This document shows positions 4,043 to 53,497 of a DNA stretch of 64,000 nucleotides, in pieces; position 1 is the first letter of the stretch; every line of letters starts with the position of its first letter. The stretch lies in the NCBI RefSeq assembly GCF_030684315.1, contig NC_081385.1, forward strand, positions 24,457,247-24,521,246. The letters run 5' to 3'. The position numbers and the translations under genes are program-made. Source of the stretch: Stegostoma tigrinum. Lineage: Eukaryota. The notes below the pieces were generated by a model. The model worked only from the letters and a program-made list of their open reading frames with translations, made no database searches and was not told the origin of the DNA.

Positions 4043-5254
4043 TAATTGGCCTTTACAGGCCACAAATCTTTGCAGAGCAAAATGGCTATTGTATGGATGG
4101 GGTCAGGAATATAGCACGTCAGCTTGCATTGTAATTTTCAGGCCTCACTTGCCTTTCCTCCTCACGTCAGTGGAGCTGAAACATTCAGCCTGTGTGTGTC
4201 TGTTAGATTGAAATGGAGCTTTATAACTGGGCGGGGTTGTCCTCAAAGGTAAGGTAGTACCAGTATTGGTAATCCCAGAGAAACGTAGGGCTTCTCTCTC
4301 ATTACAGAGAAACAGCTAGTGGTGAGCTTAACCTGAGGGTCAGCATGCCCCAGGTGAGGATTGAAGTTGAGAGGGCAAGACCTTCATACTGACCTTAATT
4401 GGTCCAGAAATCGAACCCACACGTTCGGTATCACTCTGTATTGCAAACCAGCAATACTGCCACCTGAACTAACTGGTGGAACACTTGTGAAGAACCCTGT
4501 CACAGGGGGAGAATGATGGCTATTTTAGGAAATGGAGCTGTTTGTGTGTGATGACTTCACTGTTGTGAGATTGCACAGCTCAGCTCGACCATAATAGGCC
4601 ACACTGATCACTCTTTTTTGTGTGCCTCACAGCTGGCCATTTTAGTCTCTGTTCCATCAAAGCCAGGTTTCTGCATCTGTGGATTAAACACAAACATTAG
4701 CAGTTCTGTTGTAAGCTGTACAAAATTCGTTCCATTCCCTTTTTTAACTCCAACTGATTGCAGTTTCAAGAAGAGCAGACAAATAAATTCAGCAGGGGCA
4801 GATAAAGTGGAAACACTTGTTTAGTAAGGCCTGATACTGACTACAAAAAAATCGCAAAGTGGGTTTGAACTCAAAATTGAAACACATTAAAGAGAAATTG
4901 AATTGATCAGCAGCATGAATGACTATTACATCTATTTTTATGGAAAGTAGCTTATCGTCAGGAGCATTAGCTAAAAGCAACGTGGAAAAAATTATCACTG
5001 CTTTCTCTTGTTTTTAAAAATCCAGCAATAGCATTCATGTCTCTCTGACAATATTGTTGCCCATGCTTATCTGCAGGGGGATTTGCATAGCTTGGGCTCA
5101 CAAGTGATTTAACAGCATTCTTACTAATGATCATCTCTAACAGTAGAAAGCACAACCATATCATTCTGAATTCAAATACAATTCATCTCAAAGCCCCTTA
5201 CCAGCAACATCTTGGGGATCACAACTGACTAAAAAAAACTTAATTGATGGATGT

Positions 5255-5595
5255 ATACTATCATAGAAATCTCTACAGTATGGATGCAGGTCCTTTGGCT
5301 CAGCAAGGCCACACCAATCCTCAGAGCATCCCACCCTGAGGGCATCCCACCCTGAGGGCATCCCACCCTGACCCATCCCCCTATAACCCACCTAATCTAC
5401 ACATCCCTGAACACTACGGTAATTTTGCATGGCTAATCCACCTAATCTACACTTCTTTGGACTGTGAGGAAACTGGAGCACCAGAAGAAACCCATGCAGA
5501 CATGGGGAGAATGTGCAAACCCCACACAGTCACCCAAGGGTGGAATCAAATGCAGGTCCCTGTGAGGCAGCAGTGCTAACCACTGAGCCACTGAG
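5255..5595 (-). mobile_element. V-SINE (HE1-like) with an internal 16-bp triplication
   Basis: Reverse complement of the SINE at 3746. gcatcccaccctgagg occurs 3 times at about 5326-5371. Confidence 0.8.
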
Positions 5596-5665
5596 TGAAC
5601 ATCAGCAGAGACCCTATGCCAACTAACATGGTTCAACCTTGGATGAAATTAACAGTAAACTCCAG

Positions 5666-6922
5666 TCATTGCCATTGCTTGTGAACTTGCTGGTGTCTCA
5701 GCAGATTGGATGACTGACTGAATTCCTTCCCACACTTTGAGCAGGTGAATGGTCTCTCTCCAGCGTGAACTCGCTGGTGTAAAGTGAGCTTGCATAATCG
5801 CTTGAGCCCAATCTCACAGTGAGAGCATCTGAATAGTTTCTCATCTGTATGAACGCGTAGATGGGACATCAGTTCCCGGGTACTTTCAGAGCCTTTACCA
5901 CACTTAGGACATTTAAATGGCTTGTCTCCAGTGTGAACTAGCTGGTGTAGCAGCAGGTGAGATGATCGAGTGAATTCCTTCTCACATTCAGAGAGGCTGA
6001 ATGGCCTCTCTCCAGTGTGTATTCACTCATGTACAGTGAGTTCAGAGGAGTGCTTGAACTGACTCTAACAGTAAGAGCATCTGAATAGTCTCTTGTCAAT
6101 GTGAATACATCAATGAGACATCAGCTCCTAAGAACTTTTACAGTGTTTGCACAATCTGGGCATTTGAAAGGTTCCTCCTCGCCAGTGTGAATCGCATTCT
6201 GAGCAGGTGAATAGCCGTTCCCCAGAGTGAACTCGCTGGTGCGCAGTGAGGTTAGATGAATGTCTGACTCCAGTCTCACATAGAAAGCATCTGAATGGCC
6301 TGACATCAGTATGAATATATTGATGGGACATCAGTTCCCAGGTACTTTTATAGCCTTTACCACTGTCTGGGCATTTATTAGGCCTCTCCCCGGCATGAAC
6401 CAGCTGGTGATGCAGCAGGTGGGATGGCCGAATGAGGTTCTTCCCACATTCAGAGCAGGTGAATAGCCTGTCTCCTGTGAAAGCTCTCAGGTGTACAGTG
6501 AGGTTTGAGGAGTGCTTGAGCCCACTTCCACAGTAAGATCACCTGAAAGGTCTCTTGCCAGTGTGAACAAGTTGATGGGACTTGGGTTCCCTGGAACTTG
6601 TCCAGCACTTCTCACAATCTGGACATTTAAAAGGTTTCTCATGAGTGTGAACTTTCCGATGTGTACGTAGCTCGCTTGAGCCAGTGAATCCTCTGCCACA
6701 CTCAGGACAGATGAAAGGTCTGTTTCTAGGGTAAATGTGTTGATGTCTTTTCAGTTGAGATGGATAATTGAATTTCTTTTCACAATCTCCACATTTACAC
6801 AGTTTCTTCCTTTTCTGACTGGATTTATGTTTTGACAGGCTAGATAATCAGCTGAATCCTTGTTCACACACAGAACACATGTATGGTTTCTCTCCAATTT
6901 TAATGGTACTCTTTCCTTCCAT
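5666..6922 (-). pseudogene. Tandem C2H2 (Kruppel-type) zinc-finger pseudogene, about 15 fingers, single exon
   Basis: Reads MEGKSTIKIGEKPYMCSVC... with repeated CxxC...HxxxH and TGERPF-type linkers. In-frame TGA at 6848-6850 and 6539-6541, a deletion/frameshift near 6190, and several lost zinc ligands. Confidence 0.92.
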
Positions 6923-9195: not shown

Positions 9196-9253
9196 ATGGC
9201 GAGAATGTTCCTGCAGCTGATTGTGTTCACTCTGGCATGGACTGGTGTGGAAG
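9196..9253 (+). CDS. IgSF gene A, exon 1: signal peptide MARMFLQLIVFTLAWTGVE
   Basis: ATG, hydrophobic core, typical TGVEG-like end, phase-1 donor G|gttagt. Confidence 0.75.
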
Positions 9254-11789: not shown

Positions 11790-14610
11790 GCCTGGCCCGT
11801 ATCCCTCCAAACCTTTCCTATTCATGTACTTATCCAAATGTCTTTTAAACATTGCAATTCTACCTGCATCCACCACTTCCTCAGGAATGTCATTCCACAC
11901 GTGAACCATCCTCTGTGTAAAAAAAAGTTGCTCCTTATGTCTTTTTGAAATCTTTCTCCTCTCTCCTTAAACAAATGCTTCCTAGTCTCGAAATCCGCCA
12001 TCCTAGGGAAATGACAATTACCAATAGCTCTATCTATATCTCTCATTATTTTATAAACTTCTCTTAGGTCGCCTCTCAACCTCCTCTGCTTCATTGAAAA
12101 ATGTCCCAGCCTATCCAGCCTTTCTTTATAAATTAAACCTTCCATCCTGTTAAGTCTCTCCTGAACTCTCTCTAGATTGATAATATTCTTTCCTATAACT
12201 GGGTGTCCAGAACTGGATATAATATTCCAGGAAAGGCCTCACCAATGTCCCATACAACATCATCATGACTTCTCAACCCCTACACTCAAAGGATTGAGCA
12301 ATGAGCAAATGCTTTTTTAACCATCCTGTCTATGTAAGATGCAAACTTCAAAGAATTATGTACCTGAAAGCATGGGTCCCTCTGTTCTACAACACTACCC
12401 AAGGCCTTATCATTAATTGTACAAGCCCTACCCTTGTTGTACCAAAATGCAAAGCCTCACATTTATCCAGATTGAACTCCATCTACTGTATTTCAGTCTA
12501 TTGACCCATTTTGTCAAGATCCCTTGGTAACCTTAGAAAAGCTTCTTTACTTCTACTATGCCACCAATTTTGGTGTCGTCTGCAAATTTTCTAGCCCTGC
12601 CTACTATATTCTCATTCAGATCATTTACATAAATGACACAAAAGAGGACCCAGAACCGATCCAAGTGGAACACTGCTGCTCACAGGATTGTAATCCAAAA
12701 AGCAACCCTCCACTATTACTCTCTGTCTCCAGTTGTTAATCCAATTATGTGTGCAATTGGCAAGCTCACCCTGAATCCCATGTGACTTAACTTTACTAAT
12801 TCATCTACCATGCAGAACGTTGTCTAAGTCTTCGCTAAAATCAAAATAAACAATATCTACTGCTCTGCCATCATCAATCTAGAACATAGAACATTACAGC
12901 ACAGTACAGGCCCTTCGGCCCTCAATGTTGTGCTGACCTGTCATACCAATCTCAAGCCCATCTAACCTACACTATTCCATGTACGTCCATATGCTTATCC
13001 AATGACGACTTAAACGTACCTAAAGTTGGTGAATCTACTACTGTTGCAGGCAAAGCGTTCCATTCCCTTACTACTCTCTGAGTAAAGAAACTACCTCTGA
13101 TATCTGTCCTATACCTTTCACCCCTCAATTTAAAGCTATGCCCCCTCGTACTCGCCGTCACCATCCTAGGAAAAAGACTCTCCCTATCCACCCTATCTAA
13201 CCCTCTGATTATTTTATATGTTTCAATTAAGTCACCTCTCAACCTTCTTCTCTCTGATGAAAACAGCCTCAAGTCCCACAGCCTTTCCTCGTAAGACCTT
13301 CCCTCCATACCAGGCAACATCCTAGTAAATCTCCTCTGCACCCTTTCCAAAGCTTCCACATCCTTCTTACAATGCGGTGACCAGAACTGTACACGATACT
13401 CCAAGTGCGGCCGCACCAGAGTTTTGTACAGCTTCACCATAACCTCTTGGTTCCGGAACTCGAGCCCTCTAGTAATAAAAGCTAAAACACTGTATGCCTT
13501 TTTAACAGCCCTGTCAACCTGGGTGGCAACTTTCAAGGATCTATGTACACGGACACCGACACATGGACAATCTTTTTGATAACGTCCTCAAAAAATTCAA
13601 TCAAGTTTGTGAGACATGATTTTCCTTGCACAAAACTATGCTGAATATCCCTAATCAACTTTTGCCTCTATAAATATCCATAAATCCTAGTTTTTTTATA
13701 ATCACCTCCAACAATTTACCCACAGCAAAAGTCAGACTCACAAGTCTACAGTTCCTCAATTTCTCCTTACAACCTTTCCTCAACAAAGGTACAACATTAG
13801 CCACCCTCCAGTCATCAGGCACCTCACACATAGTTATAGATGTTGCAAATATTTCTGCAAGAGGTCTTATAATTTCCTCTCTTACTTCCCACAACATTCC
13901 AGGATACATTTGATCAGCTCCCAGAGATTCATCCACCTTTATATTCTCTAAGACCTCCAAAACTTCCTTTTCTATTATGTGAACTGTTGTTCAAACATTA
14001 CAATTTATTTCTCTTCATTCTTGAGGCTCCATTTCTTACCGCATAATAAAAAAAAGATGCAAAATATTCAGTTAATATCTCTCCCATCTTCTGGGGTTCA
14101 ACACAAAGACAACCTCTTTGATCTTTAAGAAGCTCTACATTCTCTCTATTTACCTTGTTGCAGTTAATCTACTTGTGGAATTTCTTTGGATTATCCTTAA
14201 ATTTATATGCCAATGCTATTCATATCCTGTCTTTGCCTTCCTGATTTGTCTCTTAAGAATGCCCCTACACTCTTTATATTGATTAAGAGATTCTCTTGAA
14301 CCAAAATTGTTTGATTCTAAAATTAGATTCTCTTTTATTCTTGACTAGAACCTCAATATCTTTATTCATCCATTGTTCCTTTATCTTACCAGCCTTACCC
14401 TTCATTGTAACAGGAACAAAATTCTTCTGAACTCTCGTTATCACCCTCTTGAACACCTCCCACTTGTCAGATGTCCTTTTACTTGTGAACAATCTACTCC
14501 CATCACCTTTTCAAAGTTCATGTCTCATACCATTAAAATTTGCCTTACTTCAATTAAAAATTTTAACTTTTATGAAAGGCTCATCCTTTTCCACAACCAT
14601 TTCCTTTAAC
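11790..14610 (-). mobile_element. Older fragmented CR1 LINE (ORF2 RT region) interrupted by a younger CR1
   Basis: ORF pieces 11822-12145 (RLRGDLREVYKIM), 13655-13960 (VPDDWRVANVVPL) and 14283-14492, with many stops and frameshifts. Confidence 0.9.
12881..13567 (-). mobile_element. Young 5'-truncated CR1 LINE nested in an older CR1
   Basis: Intact 189-aa ORF2 C-terminus (LYKTLVRPHLEY...RVVREWNALP), (tgttcta)n tail, flanked by caatct at 12875-12880 and 13568-13573. Confidence 0.93.
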
Positions 14611-19375: not shown

Positions 19376-19695
19376 GAACAACATCCTGAGAGGAAAGCCA
19401 GCCATATTAAACTGCACATTTAATTATATTGCAAATGACAGTAATTGGATCTACATATTCTGGTACAAGACCTCACAGGGGATTACTGAGAGAATAACCA
19501 GAGAATATTCAGAGAATAATCTGACCTGCATCCCTGACATTGCTCCACACACTGTTAGCCACTGTGCTGCAACTCTGATGATCAAAAATGTTTCTTTTAG
19601 AATGTCTGATTCAAATTATACATGTGTGGTGAAGGTACCAACTATCTACCCACCAATTGAGGAAGAGGGACCAGGCACACAATTGCATGTTTATG
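19376..19695 (+). CDS. IgSF gene A, V-set exon with germline-encoded J-like motif
   Basis: GKPAILNC...IFWYK...ATLMIKNV...YTC...IYPP...GPGTQLHV. Acceptor ttccattag|, donor G|gtaaag, phase 2 to 1. Confidence 0.93.
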
Positions 19696-20634: not shown

Positions 20635-21137
20635 TGTTTTCATTAGAGAGAAGAAGGTTGAGAGGTGACTTAATAGAAACATATAAAATAATCAGAGGGT
20701 TAGATAGGCTGGATAGGGAGAGCCTTTTTCCTAGGATGGTGACGGCGAGCACGAGGGGGCATAGCTTTAAATTGAGGGGTGAAAGATATAGGACAGATGT
20801 CAGAGGTAGTTTCTTTACTCAGAGAGTAGTAAGGGAATGGAATGCTTTGCCTGCAACAGTAGTAGATTCGCCAACTTTAGGTACATTTAAGTCGTCATTG
20901 GATAAGCATATGGACGTACATGGAATAGTGTAGGTTAGATGGGCTTGAGATCGGTATGACAGGTCGGCACAACATTGAGGGCCGAAGACAATTTCACCTA
21001 GAATGTCTTCATCACAAACATCCGAGATGGATTTTTGCTTCATACAGAAAAGTTAAAAGAACAATGTGTTATCTTGGACATTCCAATTCAGCCTGTCAGA
21101 GGTGTACAGAGGTGTGCTGTAATGTTCTATGTTCTAT
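20635..21137 (+). mobile_element. Young CR1 3' fragment whose tail is interrupted by a 114-bp local inverted duplication
   Basis: Nearly identical to the reverse complement of about 12910-13265. The tail gagggccgaag breaks at about 20987 and resumes as gtgctgtaatgttctatgttcta at about 21115. Confidence 0.92.
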
Positions 21138-22327
21138 AATATTTCAACTTAACTTAAGATCTTGCAAAAAAATCAATTTCTTAGATCACTCATTCCTTGT
21201 AGGTGCAGTCTCTTACAAAAGGTATTTTCCACAAGTCCCACACAATTTCTGGAACCTATTGGCATCTTTAAACCACAGTGTAATCATAAACCATCATAAC
21301 AATATGAAAAAAGGATATATACTGCAGATTTATTATGACAATAGTGATCTATGACATAGGAAGAGGTGAGTTCCACTTTGAAATGCAATTGAACAGTTTG
21401 GGCTTAAAGATGTAACATTCTGAATTTCACATTGAAAACAACATTAGACTTCATGCGGATGAATATATTTTAGACAAAATCTTAAGGTTGAAAGACAATT
21501 TGTCAAAATATAGAAAACAGTTTTTATATGTCTGGCACTCAATGGATTAGGCAATCTTCCAAGACCAAAATAAAAATTATAAGCTTTGTGGACCCCAATG
21601 ATTCATTTATTGAAATGAAGTTGCCAAGTATGTAGAACCTGCTTGACATTAGCTTGTTATTGTCTTCTTTAGAGTTTGCATTCAGCTTGATTTAGTTCAC
21701 ATTTTATGTTACAGTTCCTCCATCTCCTCCAGCAATTTCTGTTACCGAGGAAATATTAGTAGCAGAAAAGGCATCTTCATTGTACTGCCTTGCTAGGGGT
21801 TTTTATCCTCGAAATATCTCCATTAAGTGGCTGCCAGCCATCCTGGATAATTCTCAATCTTCACCAGTGGATGCTGAAATGAGATATGTGATTCAAGAGT
21901 CCACTTTCAGGAATATTGATGGCACATTTAACACTACTAGTCAATTAACATTTGTTCCCACTTCAAAAGACCATGGATTAATCTATACTTGTCACTTCCA
22001 TCATTCAACAAGTGAAAATCAAATGATAAAGCAGATAAGGCTAAATGTGAACTGTAAGTATGTTACCTTAATGTATTTTTCTGATGGGCTGATGTTTTTG
22101 GCCTTTAATTTGTGGCATACTCCTAGCGTAAGCATGAAGGGGCCTAGATGCTGATTGCTTCCCTGAAGCTTTGCAAGATGATTATGCAATATTGGCATTG
22201 AGTGTACATATGATGACAGGCTGAATTGGAATGTCCAAGATAACACATTGTTCTTTTAACTTTTCTGTATGAAGCAAAAATCCATCTCAGATGTTTGTGA
22301 TGAAGACATTCTAGGTGAAATTGTCTT
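20985..22327. repeat. 114-bp inverted repeat pair (20985-21098 and 22214-22327) enclosing the C1 exon
   Basis: aagacaatttcacctagaatg...aattcagcctgtca and its reverse complement, with 1 mismatch (catccgag vs catctgag). Confidence 0.95.
21715..22053 (+). CDS. IgSF gene A, C1-set domain exon
   Basis: LYCLARGFYPRNISIKW...NIDGTFNTTSQL...YTCHFHH are classic C1 signatures (CxAxGFYP, NxDGTF, YxCxxxH). Acceptor ttacag|, donor T|gtaagt, 339 nt, phase 1-1. Confidence 0.95.
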
Positions 22328-23290
22328 ACATTAAATCGGGAATCCTAATGAACCTGGCCCTGTAAATGGAGTTTTGTTTTTGGCTTATCTTTTCACAGTG
22401 CAGAAAGAGTTCAATTTTGAATCTAGACGTTGTAGCTCGATTTGAAAATGTCATTTGGTAACTGAAGTTGCAAAGTCCTTGAAGTGAACAAACTGCTTAA
22501 ACACTGGGGAAAGAGCTGCTTTGTAGGAGTAAATTGAAGTGTTCCATTGAAAAAAATTGCAGAGCTCATACAGGCCAAATATATGCCTCAAAATTCTGTA
22601 AATCTCCAAAATTTGTTCATTGAATTGATAAATCTGATCTATGCTTACTCCTTCCTAAAATTAACGGTTTCAATACCAATGGATTTGCTTTAAACTGAGG
22701 AAAATAGGGACAAAAAGAGAAACAAGGAGACATTTCTTTCACTATCAAACATATTAGATAGGTTTTTGAAAATATGTAAATTGAGGGAAATATTGAAACG
22801 ATGAGATTTATCTCCTTAAAATGGTTTTAGGGCTTTGCCCTATTCACAAAACATCTTGTCAAGTACAGGCCAATTTTCTGGTAGACAATGATGGAACATA
22901 GGTTTACATTGAAAACTTTGCAAGCTTTTTATCACAATACCATTCACCGGAGCGATGACGACGATTCTTTACAAGAAGGAAGAAAGTAGAAATTCAAGAG
23001 TAAGTTAACATTTCGTTCTCTCTTGGACATTTTCAATACTGATTTGAACGTGATCTTGCAAGTGGTTGTCTACTTGTCTTTTGCTTAAGAATAAATATGA
23101 ATAAGATTCCACTTAACAAGCAATTCTTGCACAAATATTTTGCTTTTAAAGAGTTTTTTGGCCTAATATTTTACAATACAGAAAGGACACATTTGAGTGC
23201 TTTTAATTCCAGTCAGTTTTACTTATTCTCTGGCCAGGTTGAATCTACTTCTGTGACTAATTATTTCTCGTTTCCATTGTTCTGATTCAG

Positions 23291-23607
23291 ATAGTCCAAA
23301 ACTTGTCATATATTACAGGACTTCTGGCACAGATAGGTTCCATCGACTGAACCAAGACCACATCCACATTGAGCATCGGACATTTCTTGAACTAAACTGT
23401 ACAGTGAACAGTAACCCAGCAGCCACAGTAATTTTGAAAAAGAAATCCCAGGAAAAAAGTCTGCAATTGACAGCTGGAGTAAATGTTTCAATGCTGAAGA
23501 TTGCAAATATTGAATATTCAGACAGGGGAATGTATCTTTGTGAGCACAGAACGATTATGACTTCACAGAACTGCCTGTAAATATATACCTAAAATCTGAT
23601 TTGAGAA
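23291..23607 (+). CDS. IgSF gene A, third Ig domain exon (C2/I-set) with an apparent 1-nt deletion
   Basis: (Y)SPKLVI...LELNCTVNSNPAATV...LKIANIEYSDRGMYLCE, then TAA at 23578-23580. The shifted frame gives AQNDYDFTELPVNIYLKSDLR ending at A|gtaagt. Exon is 317 nt, one short of symmetric. Confidence 0.85.
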
Positions 23608-25637: not shown

Positions 25638-25721
25638 GTAGTTTTCCATTTCGATCGGTAACATTTCTAGTCTTTCTCTTCTCTGTCATTTCATTACTGA
25701 TCTGAGGCAGTGAATGGAAAG
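25638..25721 (+). CDS. IgSF gene A, transmembrane exon (S)SFPFRSVTFLVFLFSVISLLI*GSEWK
   Basis: Strong polypyrimidine acceptor ttttttttccttcatag|, donor G|gtaaat, 84 nt, phase 1-1, hydrophobic stretch with Arg near its N-end, in-frame TGA at 25703-25705. Confidence 0.7.
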
Positions 25722-27391: not shown

Positions 27392-27416
27392 ATTGATACT
27401 GTCCTCGCAATTCTAG
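27392..27416 (+). other. Candidate small downstream exon of gene A (would add D-stop, then UTR)
   Basis: ttctcattttacag| acceptor and AG|gtaagt donor, both strong; a phase-1 join gives GAT TGA. Confidence 0.4.
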
Positions 27417-30380: not shown

Positions 30381-32254
30381 CAGCTTTGTTTAAGTAAGGG
30401 ACATCTCAAGAAGATTGTGCATTATCATTTGATGGGAAAGACTTCCCTCACAGTGGGCAGTCCCACCACTTTGTGATGGCCTCTGAAATAACTGATTACT
30501 CCTGCAGTCAACAATAATTGGGTTGAGATGAATTAATGACAGAGTAGGTTGTGCAAAGCAAAAGAACTACAGATGCTGAAAATCAGAAACATCTGGAAAA
30601 GCAGGTCTACTCGGAACGAGTTCTAAGGAGGGGTCACTGGACCTGAAATGTTAACTCTGATGTTTCTCCATTGGTGCTACCAGTCCTGCTGAGCTTTTCC
30701 AGCAAGCTTCTGTTTTTGTTAGATTGTATTGTGTGGAAGCAGCTGGTTTGAAAGATTAAATTACCTTACACATTCTATGGTTTATTTACAGGGGGCAACC
30801 TTTAGGAGCTTGTCTTAGAGTGTTTCCATTTCTATTTCTCTCACTAGGAACGCAAAACCAAGTGAAAACCGAGGCAAACCATGTGAAGTTGACCATATGG
30901 GAAATGTTGATGTCCATGAGGAAATAACTTCAACATTATGAACATGTAGGATTCTCATTTCCAATCTGTCAATTTTTTCCTTTCAAAGTACCATCAAGTC
31001 CCAACAACTCACTCAGGCAGAACACCTTTAAGACAATCATGTCCTATCCTTTCTAAAAAAAATTATGCCAGGAACACAAATTTTCTAGGCAAATCTAACA
31101 TGTTCCTGAAGGTCACTCAGCTGCCCCAGCCTTTTGACAAAGCAAATGCTTTTCCTTACCATGCCATCAGTTGAAGGTGCCATTCCCAGTGATAAGCATA
31201 GGCTCATTCTTGTGGTAGTATCCCTACCACAAAGACAGGGGGCCTGGGTTCAAATCCCAAGTATCCCAGATAAGAGTAATGCCATCTCTAACAGGTTTCT
31301 TAGAGAATATCTAGTCTTATCTGGTCGATTTTACTTGTTTCATTTTTCATGTCAATTTATTAATCATGTTTCAGAGAGGCAATAGAGGTAAGGGACCTAA
31401 AACAGTATGACATTCACGCAGAGAACCATTATAAGGCCGAACATTAGTTTCTAATAATTGGCATTTCAAGTCTCTAAGAATGTAAAACAACAAGTTGTCA
31501 GCTTTGTCCGAGAACATTAGCAGCTGTGTTTTTATTTCACTTTCTTTTTACTTGAATCGTGGTCAACAATTGTTCATGACTATACTGAATGTCTCAGTTT
31601 TGTAAAAATGTACAGAGCGAACACGGTGCAATTAATTCTATTCCTGCCATGAGGATAAATCTCTGCATTTCATTTGATCTAAAGTTTATGAATGTTTAAG
31701 AATCAGATATTTAATCAGTCTGAAGGAATCAATCTTGGTTAATTTAATTCAAATGTAGGTAATTGAAGTAATTCATTGTCATTACTACATTGATTACATA
31801 AGAAATAAAGCCAACATGGGATCACCTAGGGAAAATGGAAACTATAACACTATCAAAGTTGTATTTGTTGTAATACGTTTGATGAAGAGGAAATGTGGGG
31901 GCATGGTGATATATCATGTAATGAAAAGCAATACTGATTACACACAACAAAAAACAAAATTCAGATACTGGCTGTCTCGAAACCACAACAGAAATTGCTA
32001 GAGAAACTCAGCTGATCTGGCAGCAGCAGTGGAGAGAAAGCAGTGTCAACATTTCGGGTAGAGTGGCCTTACTTCAAAGCTGTTCTGAAGAAATGTTACT
32101 GAAACAGTGTTGTTTTCACTGCACAGATGCTGCTAGGTCTGCTGAGTTTCTCCAGCAATTTCTGTTATTGTTATTGATTACACCCAATGTTGACAACTCC
32201 AGATATAATTAAATATAATAAAACCTTACAACACAATCATACTGTAAAACTTAG

Positions 32255-36170: not shown

Positions 36171-36395
36171 CACAAAAAGAAACGAGTTGCTACTCTGCTC
36201 CCCTTTAAGTCATTATGTTTTCTCTGGTTATACAGTTTATTTTTAATAAATCAAAACATAAATAGTACTAGAGAATACAAATTAATCCTCAAATACTAAA
36301 AGATCATAAACAGCATTGCCCTACATCTTCTCCACAGTAGGCTAACTACTACAAAAATATGTCTGTTTAGATAAAACAGTTAACACATACCTTGA

Positions 36396-37155
36396 TAATA
36401 AAATGTGAGGCTGGATGAACACAGCAGGCCAAGCAGCATCTCAGGAGCACAAAAGCTGACGTTTCGGGCCTAGACCCTTCATCAGAGAGGGGGATGGGGG
36501 GAGGGAACTGGAATAAATAGGGAGAGAGGGGGAGGCGGACCGAAGATGGAGAGTAAAGAAGATAGGTGGAGAGGGTGTAGGTGGGGAGGTAGGGAGGGGA
36601 TAGGTCAGTCCAGGGAAGACGGACAGGTCAAGGAGGTGGGATGAGGTTAGTAGGTAGCTGGGGGTGCGGCTTGGGGTGGGAGGAAGGGATGGGTGAGAGG
36701 AAGAACCGGTTAGGGAGGCAGAGACAGGTTGGACTGGTTTTGGGATGCAGTGGGTAGAGGGGAAGAGCTGGGCTGGTTGTGTGGTGCAGTGGGGGGAGGG
36801 GATGAACTGGGCTGGTTGAGGGATGCAGTGGGGGAAGGGGAGATTTTGAAACTGGTGAAGTCCACATTGATACCATATGGCTGCAGGGTTCCCAGGCGGA
36901 ATATGAGTTGCTGTTCCTGCAACCTTCGGGTGGCATCATTGTGGCAGTGCAGGAGGCCCATGATGGACATGTCATCAAGAGAATGGGAGGGGGAGTGGAA
37001 ATGGTTCATCAAGAGAATGGGAGGGGGAGTGGAAATGGGTCTAGGCCCGAAACGTCAGCTTTTGTGCTCCTGAGATGCTGCTTGGCCTGCTGTGTTCATC
37101 CAGCCTCACATTTTATTATCTTGGAATCTCCAGCATCTGCAGTTCCCATTATCTC
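36396..37155 (-). mobile_element. Young Penelope-like element: GIY-YIG C-terminus, inverted pseudo-LTRs, 15-bp TSD
   Basis: HFHSPSHSLDDMSIMGLLHC...RRLQEQQLIFRLGTLQPYGINVDF; perfect inverted arms at about 36394-36477 and 37037-37120; taacacataccttga at 36381-36395 and 37156-37170. Confidence 0.93.
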
Positions 37156-49147: not shown

Positions 49148-51659
49148 TGAATTGAGAATTATCTTCACCAGAAATCTGCAAATCTGGGTGTTGAAATTTT
49201 CAAGACTATAATGTATGAGACATGGTGCAATAGCAGCAAATGTATTGACATTTCAATCAGTTATTTGAGATTCTGACCCACTCACTGTCAAGCACAGAAT
49301 ACAATCCCTCATATACTTTGTGATTAGGAATTATCATCACTGTGTGATTATAAATCGCTACATGAAATGCCATACAGGATGCAACAATACAGGATGTAGC
49401 CCTTCCTTTCATGCAGAAATTAGATGAAATCAGAGCACCCTGTGACAATTTTAAAGCACAGACCATCATTCTAAAAGGTTGATCAAATTCACAGTAATAT
49501 TAGCCATTATAGTGCCACTAACTCCCCAAGAAATGTACAATAAGGAAATGTACAAAACATTTTAATTCTTTCAATCATATCGTGCGACACAGGTACAGCA
49601 ACACAAGAAATCAAATGAACAGTGCACAATAGGATATTGCACCCTATTTGAAAATGATTCAGGAGCTGTCAATTTTATTGTATCTCAAATCAAGTTTTTA
49701 AAGTCTACAGTTGCTGGAACAATGATTCCTAAGTTATCTAATTTCCATATTGTCTCCCATAATTCTCAGTCACTTCTGACGAGTAGAAGAAAAGAAGCAC
49801 TGCTATAATTTGGAGAAAAACATCAAATATACAATCGTAGCATATTAATGGTACATGAAAAGCTTTAGAAAATTGAAATGATTTGCACTGCAGCACAGAA
49901 GTTTGACAGCAAACATCATTCAAGATTAAATAATGAATAAACAAAAGCAAACAAGACAGGAGTGTATAATAATGTTATTCAACTTGGACTGTCAGCAAAG
50001 AAGTAAATTGTACCAATACAGGTTCTCAGATGTTGTGGGCATTTCCAACTTCAATTTCTCAGGGTAATCTGTTGAGCATTTACTTGGAAAATGGGACGGA
50101 GAGTCATAACTATAAATATCAGTGGTCAAATGTTTTAATGGCTGGTTTTTAAAAGCTGATGGTGCAGACATTAAATATCATGTTTGGTAAACCACAAGTG
50201 CATACTGTGGGATCTAAATCAGCTTTTCTCACTCTTTTCAGGACATAGGTATCACTATAAAGGCCAGCATTTATTATCCTTCACTGCTTGCTGTAAGACA
50301 AAACTGAATTGTTGAATCACATTTAGGCCAGAATAAAGTCTGAATTGGGGATGTTTGCACAATATTCAGCACCACTCGTGACCCCTCAGGTATGTCACGG
50401 CCCAAGTCAGGAGTGTGATGGAATACTCCCTGCTTGTCCGGGTGGATGCAGCTCCAACAACACTCAACAAACACAATCAAGGACAAAGCAGCCTGCTTGA
50501 TTGGCAACACACTCATAAACATCTATTCCTACCACCACTGACACTCAATAGCAACAACAAGAACTATCCACAAGATGCACTGCAGAAGTTCAGCAAAGAT
50601 CCTTAGACAGCACCTTCTAAACCCATGACCACTCCCAACTAGAAGGACAAGGGCAGCAGATATATGAGAACAGCACGATGTATAAGTTCCCTTCCAAGCC
50701 ACTCACCATCCTAACTTCGAAATATATCGCTGTTCCTTCACTGTCATTGGGTCAAAATCTTGGAACTCCCTCCCTGAGGGGCATTGTGTGTCAATCTACA
50801 GCACGTGGACTGCAGCAGTTCAAGAAGGCAGCTCACCATCACCTTCTCAAGGGCAAATTACAGCTTTTTCCCCTTTGAGATTCTCCTGAAATCTCAATGA
50901 ATAAATGATGGTGAAACTAAACCCTGCAAAAATTAAAGTGATCGTACTTTAAATAAAGTAGGAAATATTTGGAATTGATCTCGGTCTATACAGAATTAGT
51001 TATAAACACAGTCATTCAACCTTTTGAACCGCCTGACCGTTCAATTAAATCACAACTGATCTTCTACCTCAAAGCAATTTTCCCACTCCATCTCCGCATT
51101 CCTTAATATCTTTAGTCCACAGAATCCTATTGATACTGTCTTCAATATACTCAATGATTAAGCTTCCAAAGTTCCTCAGGTTAGAGAACTCCAAAGTTTT
51201 ACGATGCACTAAACCAAAAAAAAATCCTCCTCATTTCCATCTTAAGTGGCCTACGGTTTATTCTGAGGGTCCATTCCCTGATACTAGTTACCAGCCGAGG
51301 GAAAAATCTCTTCAATGCCCAACCTGTCATGCCATGTAAGGATGTTACACGTTCAAATGAGCTCTTCTATCTTTCTTTAAAGCTCCTGAGGACATAGACC
51401 CATTTTTCATAGTTTCACCTCCTAGATAATCCTGAATCACATGGATTAATCCTGGTTTTTATGCAACACTTAGTGACAGTATTTGATGTCATAAATGAAA
51501 AGGTGGATCTGGTCCACTGAGAGTGCCGCTACTTGGAATTTGTCAAATCTGTAGCCATTTAATTGAATCTTAGCTTGAATCAAGCCCCCTTATGAGCCAA
51601 TGTCTCCTGAAATATAAACCTTCAAACTATAATGCAAATATATTTTAAATGAAACCTAC

Positions 51660-51956
51660 CAGGTTGAACTAAAAGATCAATGTTGTTTTCAAATGACTTG
51701 TCTTTAGTGAATGCGCAGCACGTGTATCTTCCACTGTGTGAAAAATTTAACTTTGGGATTGTTAAAATCATTTCTCTATTTTCTATACGATGAGTAAAGC
51801 CCTTGCATTCCACGCTATTAAGCTTTATATAGCAAATAAAATCTTCCTCAAGTTTCCAGTACACAATAACATCCTTTTCTTCACTGCTGAATGGGTAGAC
51901 ACACTTCAGCACTCCTGGACTGCCAAATGTAGCATTCTGTTGTATAGGGTGAATAC
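51660..51956 (-). CDS. IgSF gene B, V-set domain exon (B7/CD28-superfamily-like, no J motif)
   Basis: NATFGSPGVLKC...VIVYWK...MILTIPKLNFSHSGRYTC...NIDLLV. Acceptor ttttgtttcaaacag|, donor G|gtaggt, 297 nt, phase 1-1. Confidence 0.9.
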
Positions 51957-53497
51957 CTGTTTGAAACAAAAAGGAGCATAAACAATGTGCAATCTCATTT
52001 CATTCAGATTTTCTTATTAAGACATGTCAATAGTCAGCACATCAGAATTTCTTTTGAGTTTATTCCTTGTAGGCTATGTACATTAGGGAATGCATCAGAT
52101 ACATTTTTAAAAAAAATGATGCAGAGGTGCCGGTGATGCACTGGGGTGGACGCTCGTACTTTTGAATGTGATCCCATACAGTGGCGTAGCCAACATATGA
52201 ATATATCCTGTACTTACAAACAACTACTTTATATTGTCCTACATTGTATTTTGACTTGCACACAAATCAACCTGAGAATGGGCTCAGGGATGGAACTCGC
52301 TCGCAAGCCAGGGTTGCTTGTAAAGGGTTACCTATATCTTTAGTCTAAGAATAATAAATGAGCAGATGTATAAGATGCCATACCACAGTGGCTGATCACA
52401 TGGCACTGGGACTCGACCCTACAGGGTACCAAAGATCTCCTCTCTTACCATCCATATAATTATGCGCAAAAAAGCCTGTTAATGATCACTCAGCTGAATA
52501 CAAACCAGATCTTACTATACCAGAGATGCTGTTTAACTTGCCATGTACTTCACCACTCTCTACTGTTATTGGTAAAAAAAAAGCTAATTCTACACAAATG
52601 AAATTGATCTACATGATTATTTTAGTAATATTGGCCTAACTGGTTAGCGCTGATATAAGTGCTATGTTCTTTTAAAGTGATGTCACAAATGTGATAGCTC
52701 AGTACAAACCATGAAGCTTTATTCAGTCCAACTTCTCTGCTGTTGTTCCACTGTATCTACAACCGGTTCAGAAATGATTTGACAAGCTAAACGTTACTCA
52801 GAAAGAGCTTGCTATTTTACAATAGGAATTGCATTCTTTGGGTAACTCAGGTTAAATCATTGCTCCATTCGAAGGCAATTACTGTAGCTGATTAAGCAAA
52901 ATCAGCAGCGAGTATGCAAATAAAATATCACAAATAGGAAATTATGTAAAAGGCTAAGTGATCCTATTTGGTTGTGCTAGTTAAGGGATGACTAGTTAAA
53001 GGCTAGTCCTTTTGACAAAACAACACCCTTTCAGGTCTGAATTGACATGTCACCCTAGATAGTGTACTCAAGTACATGAGTGGTAACACTCCAGCTGGGA
53101 AAGGGGCTGGCACAAAGGAATTCACAGCCACTGGCAATGCCATCCTTGCCCTGCTTTGCTGTTAACTTACAAAGTGCTAGTGTGACCACCCGTGCCAATT
53201 TGACTCCAAACTGTGTTTGTGACAAGTTCGATTTTTCCATTGGTTCCTTATGTCCATCAAACGTTAAGCTGAAATTGTTGCACAGGTGAAGATTTAGCAA
53301 GAATTCAGACCTTGAACATTTTTTTTTCAAAACATGGTAATAAACATTAAGTATGCATGCTAGAAGGCAGGAAAATAGCTCCCATCTGGAAGCTCAAGTA
53401 ACTCTGCACTGAGTTCTGCAAAAAGAATTTTTTTAGCATGACAAATTAAAGCACTACTTATGGACTCATCATGTTACGTCATCAACCCAATACTTAC

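What the first reader, a model, noticed from the sequence alone, without database searches (positions are those of the whole stretch)
20985..22327. 114-bp near-perfect inverted duplication bracketing exactly the C1 exon
Seen: unique intronic sequence at 22214-22327 is copied in inverted orientation at 20985-21098 (1 mismatch), so the arms enclose the symmetric 339-nt C1 exon. Established: flanking intronic inverted repeats promote exon skipping, back-splicing to circRNA and ADAR editing. Inference: a recent event may have created a stem-loop that drops C1 in frame (V-C2-TM isoform) or yields a C1 circRNA. It could also mediate inversion of the exon.
Basis: partly seen in the sequence, partly recalled or inferred. 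Interest (0 to 1): 0.7.

Follow-up and report, generated by a model that had tools for sequence, protein, structure and literature searches.

The report
Retrotransposon-insertion scar in dead shark gene
The 114-base inverted copy is in the assembled sequence, but it sits inside the tail of a young retrotransposon in a shark immune-receptor gene that carries four reading-frame breaks, so it is likely a neutral copying scar rather than a splicing switch.

Summary
The inverted pair is there (113/114 identical, only two copies in the genome) and encloses only the 339-nt C1 exon. The left arm is the copy. It replaces 9 nt in the 3' UTR of a 5'-truncated CR1-type LINE, 25 nt from its end, with a 3-nt microhomology and a 14-nt filler. 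A related species lacks the whole element but has the right arm. The host V-C1-C2-TM Ig-receptor gene is a pseudogene: frameshifts in V and C2, stops in the TM and first cytoplasmic exons. No splice path I tested gives the proposed V-C2-TM protein. Two of 128 sister LINE copies carry a 31- or ~42-nt inverted copy of their own 3' flank at the 5' junction, the same polarity as here. A 160-bp inverted insertion not clearly tied to a LINE also turned up. Best reading: a microhomology-primed snap-back templated insertion made during or after integration, a known kind of event. The arms are predicted to pair in pre-mRNA, so skipping, circRNA or editing could occur if the gene is transcribed; I had no RNA data. 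Public contigs did not show the junctions (inconclusive). Interest is low.

The parts
9196..9253 (+). Probable leader (signal-peptide) exon of the Ig-receptor pseudogene
   Evidence: ATG, hydrophobic 19 aa, phase-1 GT donor. Assignment to this gene is inferred; no signal-peptide predictor was run.
19376..19695 (+). V-type Ig exon, 320 nt; 37 nt shorter than in organism B, lacks the first strand, out of frame with the leader (stop 19387-19389)
   Evidence: table 8 record 25: 39 letters in B where the window has 2. The match to P0003 starts only at residue 17. Translation. Same-species contigs match the window here with 0 differences (records 1, 17).
20635..20987 (+). 5'-truncated young CR1-type LINE, body up to the loop of its 3' UTR hairpin
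   Evidence: 96.6% to the copy at 12913-13265; 5 private changes in 353 nt against 27 sister copies; absent in organism B. The name CR1 is recalled and was not tested against a library.
20985..21098 (+). Left arm: derived inverted copy of 22214-22327; its first 3 nt (AAG) are shared with the LINE
21099..21112 (+). 14-nt filler between the copy and the LINE tail; holds a 9-nt direct repeat; a 10-mer across the junction also occurs at 20798-20807 inside the same LINE
   Evidence: The filler-tail junction 25-mer occurs once in the genome.
21113..21137 (+). LINE 3' tail; last 3 nt shared with the target; no clear target-site duplication
   Evidence: tables 5c and 8 (sister copies have 9 nt between 20987 and 21113)
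21715..22053 (+). C1-set exon, 339 nt, open frame, enclosed by the arms
   Evidence: 79% identity to P0001
22214..22327 (+). Right arm: ancestral donor segment in the C1-C2 intron
   Evidence: Lies inside the continuous organism B contig piece 21135-23700
23291..23607 (+). C2/I-set exon, 317 nt, 1-nt frameshift near 23542, stop 23578-23580
   Evidence: Frame change against P0001 and P0002. Contigs of both same-species samples show 0 gaps over 21114/21115-23700.
25638..25721 (+). Transmembrane exon with TGA at 25703-25705 where P0002 has Trp
   Evidence: not checked in reads
27392..27416 (+). First cytoplasmic exon with TGA at 27394-27396 where P0002 has Arg
   Evidence: not checked in reads
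30848..30941 (+). Last coding exon (59% to the end of P0002)

Best explanation
The left arm is an inverted copy of nearby intron DNA lodged inside the 3' end of a young LINE in a broken Ig-receptor gene, likely left by a microhomology-primed template switch and likely without function. Shown: the anatomy, the donor direction, the absence of the whole element in a relative, and the four ORF breaks. Inferred mechanism: a 3' end on the bottom strand, just past the LINE's last ~25 nt, left its template at the 3' UTR hairpin. It made a short jump (the filler), folded back onto its own strand 1.1 kb downstream, copied 111 nt, and rejoined the LINE through AAG/CTT, losing 9 nt. I put this at integration (target-primed reverse transcription plus host end joining) at about 55%, and at repair of a later break in the same spot at about 35% (listed as a rival). 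Bracketing of C1 follows from the ~1 kb reach of such events and from where the LINE landed.
For: The insert replaces 9 nt of an otherwise standard 3' UTR. Only 4 of about 11,856 exact-matching copies break at this position, so it is not a subfamily trait or a hot spot. Microhomology and filler lie at the junctions. The break falls at the predicted 3' UTR hairpin (z -2.1). Organism B has the empty site. 2 of 128 sister copies (L105 31 nt, 100%; L112 ~42 nt, 93%, followed by a short piece that resembles LINE-internal sequence) carry inverted copies of their own 3' flank at the 5' junction, against 0 unique hits in 256 control windows. Ages are compatible: LINE 1.4% private changes, arms 0.9% apart, P about 0.17 for one difference or none if contemporaneous. 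The gene is broken in V, C2, TM and cytoplasmic exons, and an apparently intact paralog (P0153) lies 42-103 kb upstream. Precedents: flank-templated extra nucleotides at L2/CR1-clade junctions (PMC4245944 passages; PMC4760211 parts 1-2) and inverted duplications at L1 sites (PMC10191854 passage; bioRxiv 10.1101/2024.12.14.628481 passages).
Against: The junctions were not seen in the contigs of 4 of 4 runs. The 2 sister cases are at 5' junctions, shorter and with closer donors (about 120 and 440 nt from the anchor); none is inside the 3' UTR. A third candidate (L132) was dropped as an old 71% repeat pair; Fisher P was 0.036 for 3/128 against 0/256 before that and is weaker after. The copies were picked by an intact 3' UTR motif, so internal captures could not be sampled. 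The 10-nt filler match is only suggestive. The order of pseudogenisation and insertion is not known. There is no RNA evidence either way.
Confidence: 0.82

Rival explanations
1. Same scar, made after integration: a double-strand break or stalled fork at the LINE's 3' UTR hairpin was repaired by polymerase-theta end joining or microhomology-mediated break-induced replication with a snap-back template. (This is a sub-case of the best explanation; its share is counted within 0.82.)
For: A small deletion, microhomology and an iterative filler fit that signature (PMC8421209 passages: inverted insertions near their template, mostly 2-12 bp microhomology, found as germline variants). L153 holds a 160-bp, 97.5% inverted pair 772 nt apart that looks like a complex templated insertion with no clear LINE integration. 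Other copies show small scars in the same 3' UTR stretch (L064, L066, L068). The arms are slightly less diverged than the LINE.
Against: A random later break has little reason to fall within about 35 nt of the end where reverse transcription starts. The polarity matches the 5'-junction captures in sister copies.
Confidence: 0.3
2. Functional or consequential splice switch: the stem drives C1 skipping, a C1 circRNA or ADAR editing that matters, or it helped to inactivate the gene.
For: The 114-bp stem forms in the fold. 30-40-nt repeats can suffice for circularisation (PMC4201285 passages). C1 is symmetric with good splice sites, and its frame is still open.
Against: Four ORF breaks; no tested splice path gives V-C2-TM. 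The event is confined to one lineage. A catshark model (P0033) joins V to C2 without C1, so that join may arise independently of this repeat (an automatic model; its introns were not examined). A 353-bp 97% LINE pair brackets the V exon of the same gene, so such pairs are commonplace here.
Confidence: 0.08
3. Assembly or library artefact: the left arm is a chimeric or fold-back read that entered the assembly.
For: No junction contig in X1-X4; depth is 0 at 21101-21108 in all four.
Against: Contigs of this kind drop short links to very high-copy repeats and collapse repeats longer than the word size (inferred; the tool says contigs show presence, not absence). Contigs of sample S2 (3 of 3 runs) carry the left-arm letter at the mismatch while S1 carries the right-arm letter, as expected if two arms are collapsed, though a SNP in the donor would look the same. 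The CpG transition, 9-nt loss and 14-nt filler are not what a simple fold-back read gives.
Confidence: 0.1

Closest known systems
Flank-templated 5' extra nucleotides at zebrafish L2/CR1-clade LINE (ZfL2-1, ZfL2-2) insertions (PMC4245944, PMC4760211, PMC2666801)
   Same: A LINE insertion with extra DNA copied from the genomic flank and/or the LINE itself, short microhomologies, and a 3' junction microhomology.
   Different: Described at the 5' junction. Here the copy is 111 nt, comes from 1.1 kb away and lies inside the 3' UTR, with the LINE resuming beyond it. I saw passages and review text only, not the junction tables.
Foldback inversions / inverted duplications at human L1 integration sites (PMC10191854; bioRxiv 10.1101/2024.12.14.628481 = PMC11702581)
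   Same: An inverted duplication of local genomic DNA (about 52-220 bp in PMC10191854) made by self-annealing of a resected end at a retrotransposition site.
   Different: Those inverted duplications are on the 5' (reciprocal) side. Here the donor is on the 3', primer side and the copy is internal to the element.
MMBIR-type templated insertions (PMC8421209) and foldback insertions at double-strand breaks (PMC11724301, abstract only)
   Same: An inverted insert near its template, with microhomology, more than one template, and germline occurrence.
   Different: That screen covered templates within 100 bp, and the yeast foldbacks are mostly 5-34 bp. Here the gap is 1115 nt.
Intronic reverse-complementary matches that promote back-splicing (PMC4201285)
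   Same: An inverted pair in the introns flanking one exon, predicted to pair.
   Different: The host is a pseudogene, the exon is short (339 nt), the arms are 616 and 160 nt from the splice sites, and no RNA was seen.
Elasmobranch V-C1-C2-TM Ig receptors auto-named Siglec-, sialoadhesin- or MAG-like (P0001, P0002, P0003, P0054, P0153)
   Same: Exon order and sequence (79% in C1 to P0001; about 58% in V and C1 to P0003).
   Different: This copy is disrupted four times. The names are automatic; a C1-set domain is not a Siglec feature (recalled).

Membership tests
Local inverted templated insertion (snap-back / MMB-TI type) | Insert is an inverted copy of a nearby template | tested here: met
   113/114, gap 1115 nt; donor ancestral
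Local inverted templated insertion (snap-back / MMB-TI type) | Microhomology and/or filler at the junctions, small deletion at the site | tested here: met
   AAG shared, 14-nt filler, 9 nt lost
Local inverted templated insertion (snap-back / MMB-TI type) | Dependence on polymerase theta, delta or the LINE reverse transcriptase | not testable with these tools
   Needs a cell assay
Capture coupled to LINE integration | Insert and element arrive together (no state with the element alone) | tested here: inconclusive
   Organism B lacks both; ages overlap; contigs cannot phase alleles
Capture coupled to LINE integration | Same-polarity captures recur at junctions of the same LINE family | tested here: met
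   2 of 128 copies against 0 of 256 control windows; small numbers, 5' junctions only
circRNA / skipping-promoting intronic inverted repeat | Arms flank the exon and can pair | tested here: met
   (prediction)
circRNA / skipping-promoting intronic inverted repeat | Back-splice, skip or editing reads exist | not testable with these tools
   No RNA holder listed
Domain-dropping protein isoform switch | Skipped mRNA encodes an intact V-C2-TM protein | tested here: not met
   Stops at residue 24, or in C2 with the alternative acceptor
CR1 clade LINE | ORF2 C-terminus, 3' UTR hairpin, short tandem tail, 5' truncation, little or no TSD | tested here: inconclusive
   All seen in the sequence, but the clade name is recalled; no repeat library was available

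The most novel reading that the evidence does not exclude
Shark CR1 reverse transcription can stall at the 3' UTR hairpin after about 25 nt, snap back onto its own primer strand more than 1 kb away, copy over 100 nt of host DNA and resume on the LINE. This would be the internal version of a capture seen at about 2% of this family's 5' junctions. It would make CR1 integration a steady source of unique-sequence inverted repeats that can bracket exons and create skipping or circRNA substrates in one step.
Probability: 0.3. Interest if true: 0.42.

Novelty: new member of a known kind. Interest (0 to 1): 0.17.

Why it matters
As it stands, little: one lineage-specific repair or integration scar in a pseudogene. 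Its value is as a clean example of how exon-bracketing inverted repeats of unique sequence arise, and as a hint that primer-side snap-back happens at CR1 insertions in sharks (2 of 128 sister copies). If the internal capture were shown to happen during reverse transcription, it would add a step to models of LINE integration, which in the papers I read place flank-templated DNA at the 5' junction.

Tried and rejected
RNA evidence: no RNA holder listed. X17 covered only the repeat (4 of 30 bins). Junction check in contigs of X1-X4: no cover at 21101-21108, inconclusive. Inversion test: contigs cannot distinguish orientations between arms longer than the word size, so not assessed. Variant LINE subfamily carrying the filler: rejected, the junction 25-mer is single-copy. 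Hot spot at this 3' UTR position: rejected, 4 breaks against 11,852 intact; the other three are a small deletion (L048) and two 3'-truncated or interrupted copies (L049, L050) with no local inverted copy within 1.5 kb. The 16 other loci with an odd base run before the tail showed none either. L132 was dropped as an old repeat pair. L123 and L187 (26 and 35 nt inverted pairs) are not at LINE junctions. Ordering pseudogenisation against the insertion: not possible, because the indel table for organism B was cut before the C2 site. Earlier scan notes: none near this place. Literature: searches. One search (CR1, shark, retrotransposon, inverted duplication, template switch; at least 4 of 5 terms) listed 4 papers, none on this by title or abstract start. 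Closed journals and supplements were not seen, so internal captures may be in print.

Full report
Observation. The two arms are at the stated coordinates, 113 of 114 bases complementary and 1115 nt apart. The segment is found at only these two places in the 3.2-Gb genome. Between them lies one exon, a 339-nt C1-set exon, 616 nt from the left arm and 160 nt from the right. A fold of 20960-22350 pairs the arms in both the minimum-energy and centroid structures. In 464 kb around the window this is the only unique-sequence inverted pair at 97% or better, so it is not a chance match.

Anatomy of the left arm. It lies inside a LINE, not beside it. A sister copy in the window (12913-13265, minus strand) continues past the same point with 9 further bases and then the tail, and so do contigs of other copies (table 5c). 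Here those 9 bases are replaced by 111 nt of inverted intron copy plus a 14-nt filler, and the last 25 nt of the element follow. The left junction shares AAG. The filler holds a 9-nt direct repeat, and a 10-mer across the right junction also occurs 290 nt upstream in the same element (suggestive only). The 9 lost bases are the 3' arm of a predicted 3' UTR hairpin and the bases after it (7 of 200 shuffles fold as well). The junction is unique in the genome. Only 4 copies break at this position against 11,852 intact ones. The label CR1 is recalled from the ORF2 end and the tail, not tested against a library.

Direction and age. One contig of organism B, about 94% identical, joins 20636 directly to 21135 and continues through the right arm (record 26). 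So the element and the left arm are both younger than the split, and the right arm is the donor. This copy has 5 private changes in 353 nt against 27 close sister copies (1.4%; mean of the others 2.3%). The arms differ at one CpG; that fits a capture at integration (P about 0.17) or later.

Host gene. The exons form leader-V-C1-C2-TM-cytoplasmic, matching auto-named elasmobranch Ig receptors P0001, P0002 and P0003. It is a pseudogene. The V exon is 37 nt shorter than in organism B and lacks its first strand. C2 has a 1-nt frameshift. The TM and first cytoplasmic exons have TGA where P0002 has Trp and Arg. The V and C2 lesions are matched without gaps by contigs from both same-species samples; the two stops were not checked in reads. 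Spliced in silico, the full and C1-skipped forms stop after 23 residues. Of ten AG sites tried around the V start, one (19393) restores frame, and those products stop in C2, or at the end of the TM if C2 is also skipped. The proposed V-C2-TM isoform therefore cannot be made by these routes. An apparently intact paralog lies 42-103 kb upstream on the other strand; it matches P0153, named from Stegostoma tigrinum, at 100% over its C2 exon, so the genome is probably that species.

How common is this. I fetched 130 loci (768 kb) around copies of the same LINE taken from the first places listed; they held 141 copies, of which 128 had enough flank to test. Three had a unique inverted match to their own 3' flank at the 5' junction. 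L132 fell on inspection, leaving L105 (31 nt, perfect) and L112 (~42 nt, 93%). None of 256 control windows had a unique match (two had matches in repeated sequence). The polarity, inverted with the donor on the 3' side, is the same as in the finding, and is what a first-strand 3' end folding onto its own strand would give (inference). The same loci held five unique inverted pairs of 22 nt or more, including a 160-bp, 97.5% pair with a 772-nt gap in L153 that looks like a complex templated insertion not clearly tied to integration. One such long young pair in about 1.2 Mb, leaving out the finding, suggests of the order of a thousand genome-wide (n = 1, uniqueness judged within the sample only). 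Some would enclose an exon by chance, most easily in a dead gene (inference).

Reads. No contig from X1-X4 shows the left-arm junctions. Such contigs collapse the arms and likely drop short links to a repeat with depth in the millions. The three runs of sample S2 carry the left-arm letter at the mismatch and S1 the right-arm letter, which fits collapsed arms or a donor SNP. An artefact is unlikely but not excluded. No RNA holder was listed.

What is known. Extra nucleotides copied from the flank or from the element at 5' junctions are described for zebrafish L2/CR1-clade LINEs (PMC4245944, passages; PMC4760211, parts 1-2 of 4; PMC2666801, passages). Short inverted duplications at L1 sites are described in human cells (PMC10191854, one passage; PMC11702581, passages and section 7; its later version, passages). 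Inverted templated insertions occur as germline variants (PMC8421209, passages; PMC11724301, abstract). Short intronic repeats can drive back-splicing, less so for short exons in one reporter (PMC4201285, passages). What differs here is the position inside the 3' UTR and the 1.1-kb primer-side donor; I did not find that described, which do not cover closed journals or supplements.

Verdict. A real-looking, lineage-specific inverted templated insertion, probably made as the LINE integrated, in a pseudogene. RNA-level effects are possible but untested and could not yield the proposed protein. New member of a known kind; interest 0.17.

Noticed in passing
L105:3362-3392 vs 2641-2671; L112:3863-3904 vs 4462-4505: Sister LINE copies with an inverted copy of their own 3' flank at or within 10 nt of the 5' junction (2 of 128 tested).
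   Followed up: yes
L153:4528-4687 vs 5460-5619: 160-bp, 97.5% unique inverted pair; the right copy sits between ~80-bp inverted arms, suggesting a two-template insertion.
   Followed up: partly
window 12913-13265 and 20635-20987: Two LINE copies, 97% complementary over 353 nt, bracket the V exon of the same gene and could also pair in pre-mRNA.
   Followed up: no
L028-L047 (about 12-103 kb upstream of the window, mostly minus strand): Apparently intact paralog matching P0153, with tyrosine motifs in its tail, plus further broken V and C1/C2 fragments: a small birth-and-death cluster of V-C1-C2-TM receptors.
   Followed up: partly
P0001, P0002, P0014, P0016, P0033: Five of the six closest ortholog models lack the leader, most of V or the TM; P0033 joins V to C2 without C1. 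The gene may be decaying in several shark and ray lineages, or be poorly annotated.
   Followed up: no
window 51625-51999 minus strand: A separate V-set Ig exon (Pfam V-set E 6e-5), unrelated to this gene.
   Followed up: no
window 5669-6847 minus strand: C2H2 zinc-finger array broken by stops and frameshifts.
   Followed up: no
window 36394-36477 and 37037-37120: 84-bp perfect inverted pair made of a high-copy short repeat, 559 nt apart.
   Followed up: no
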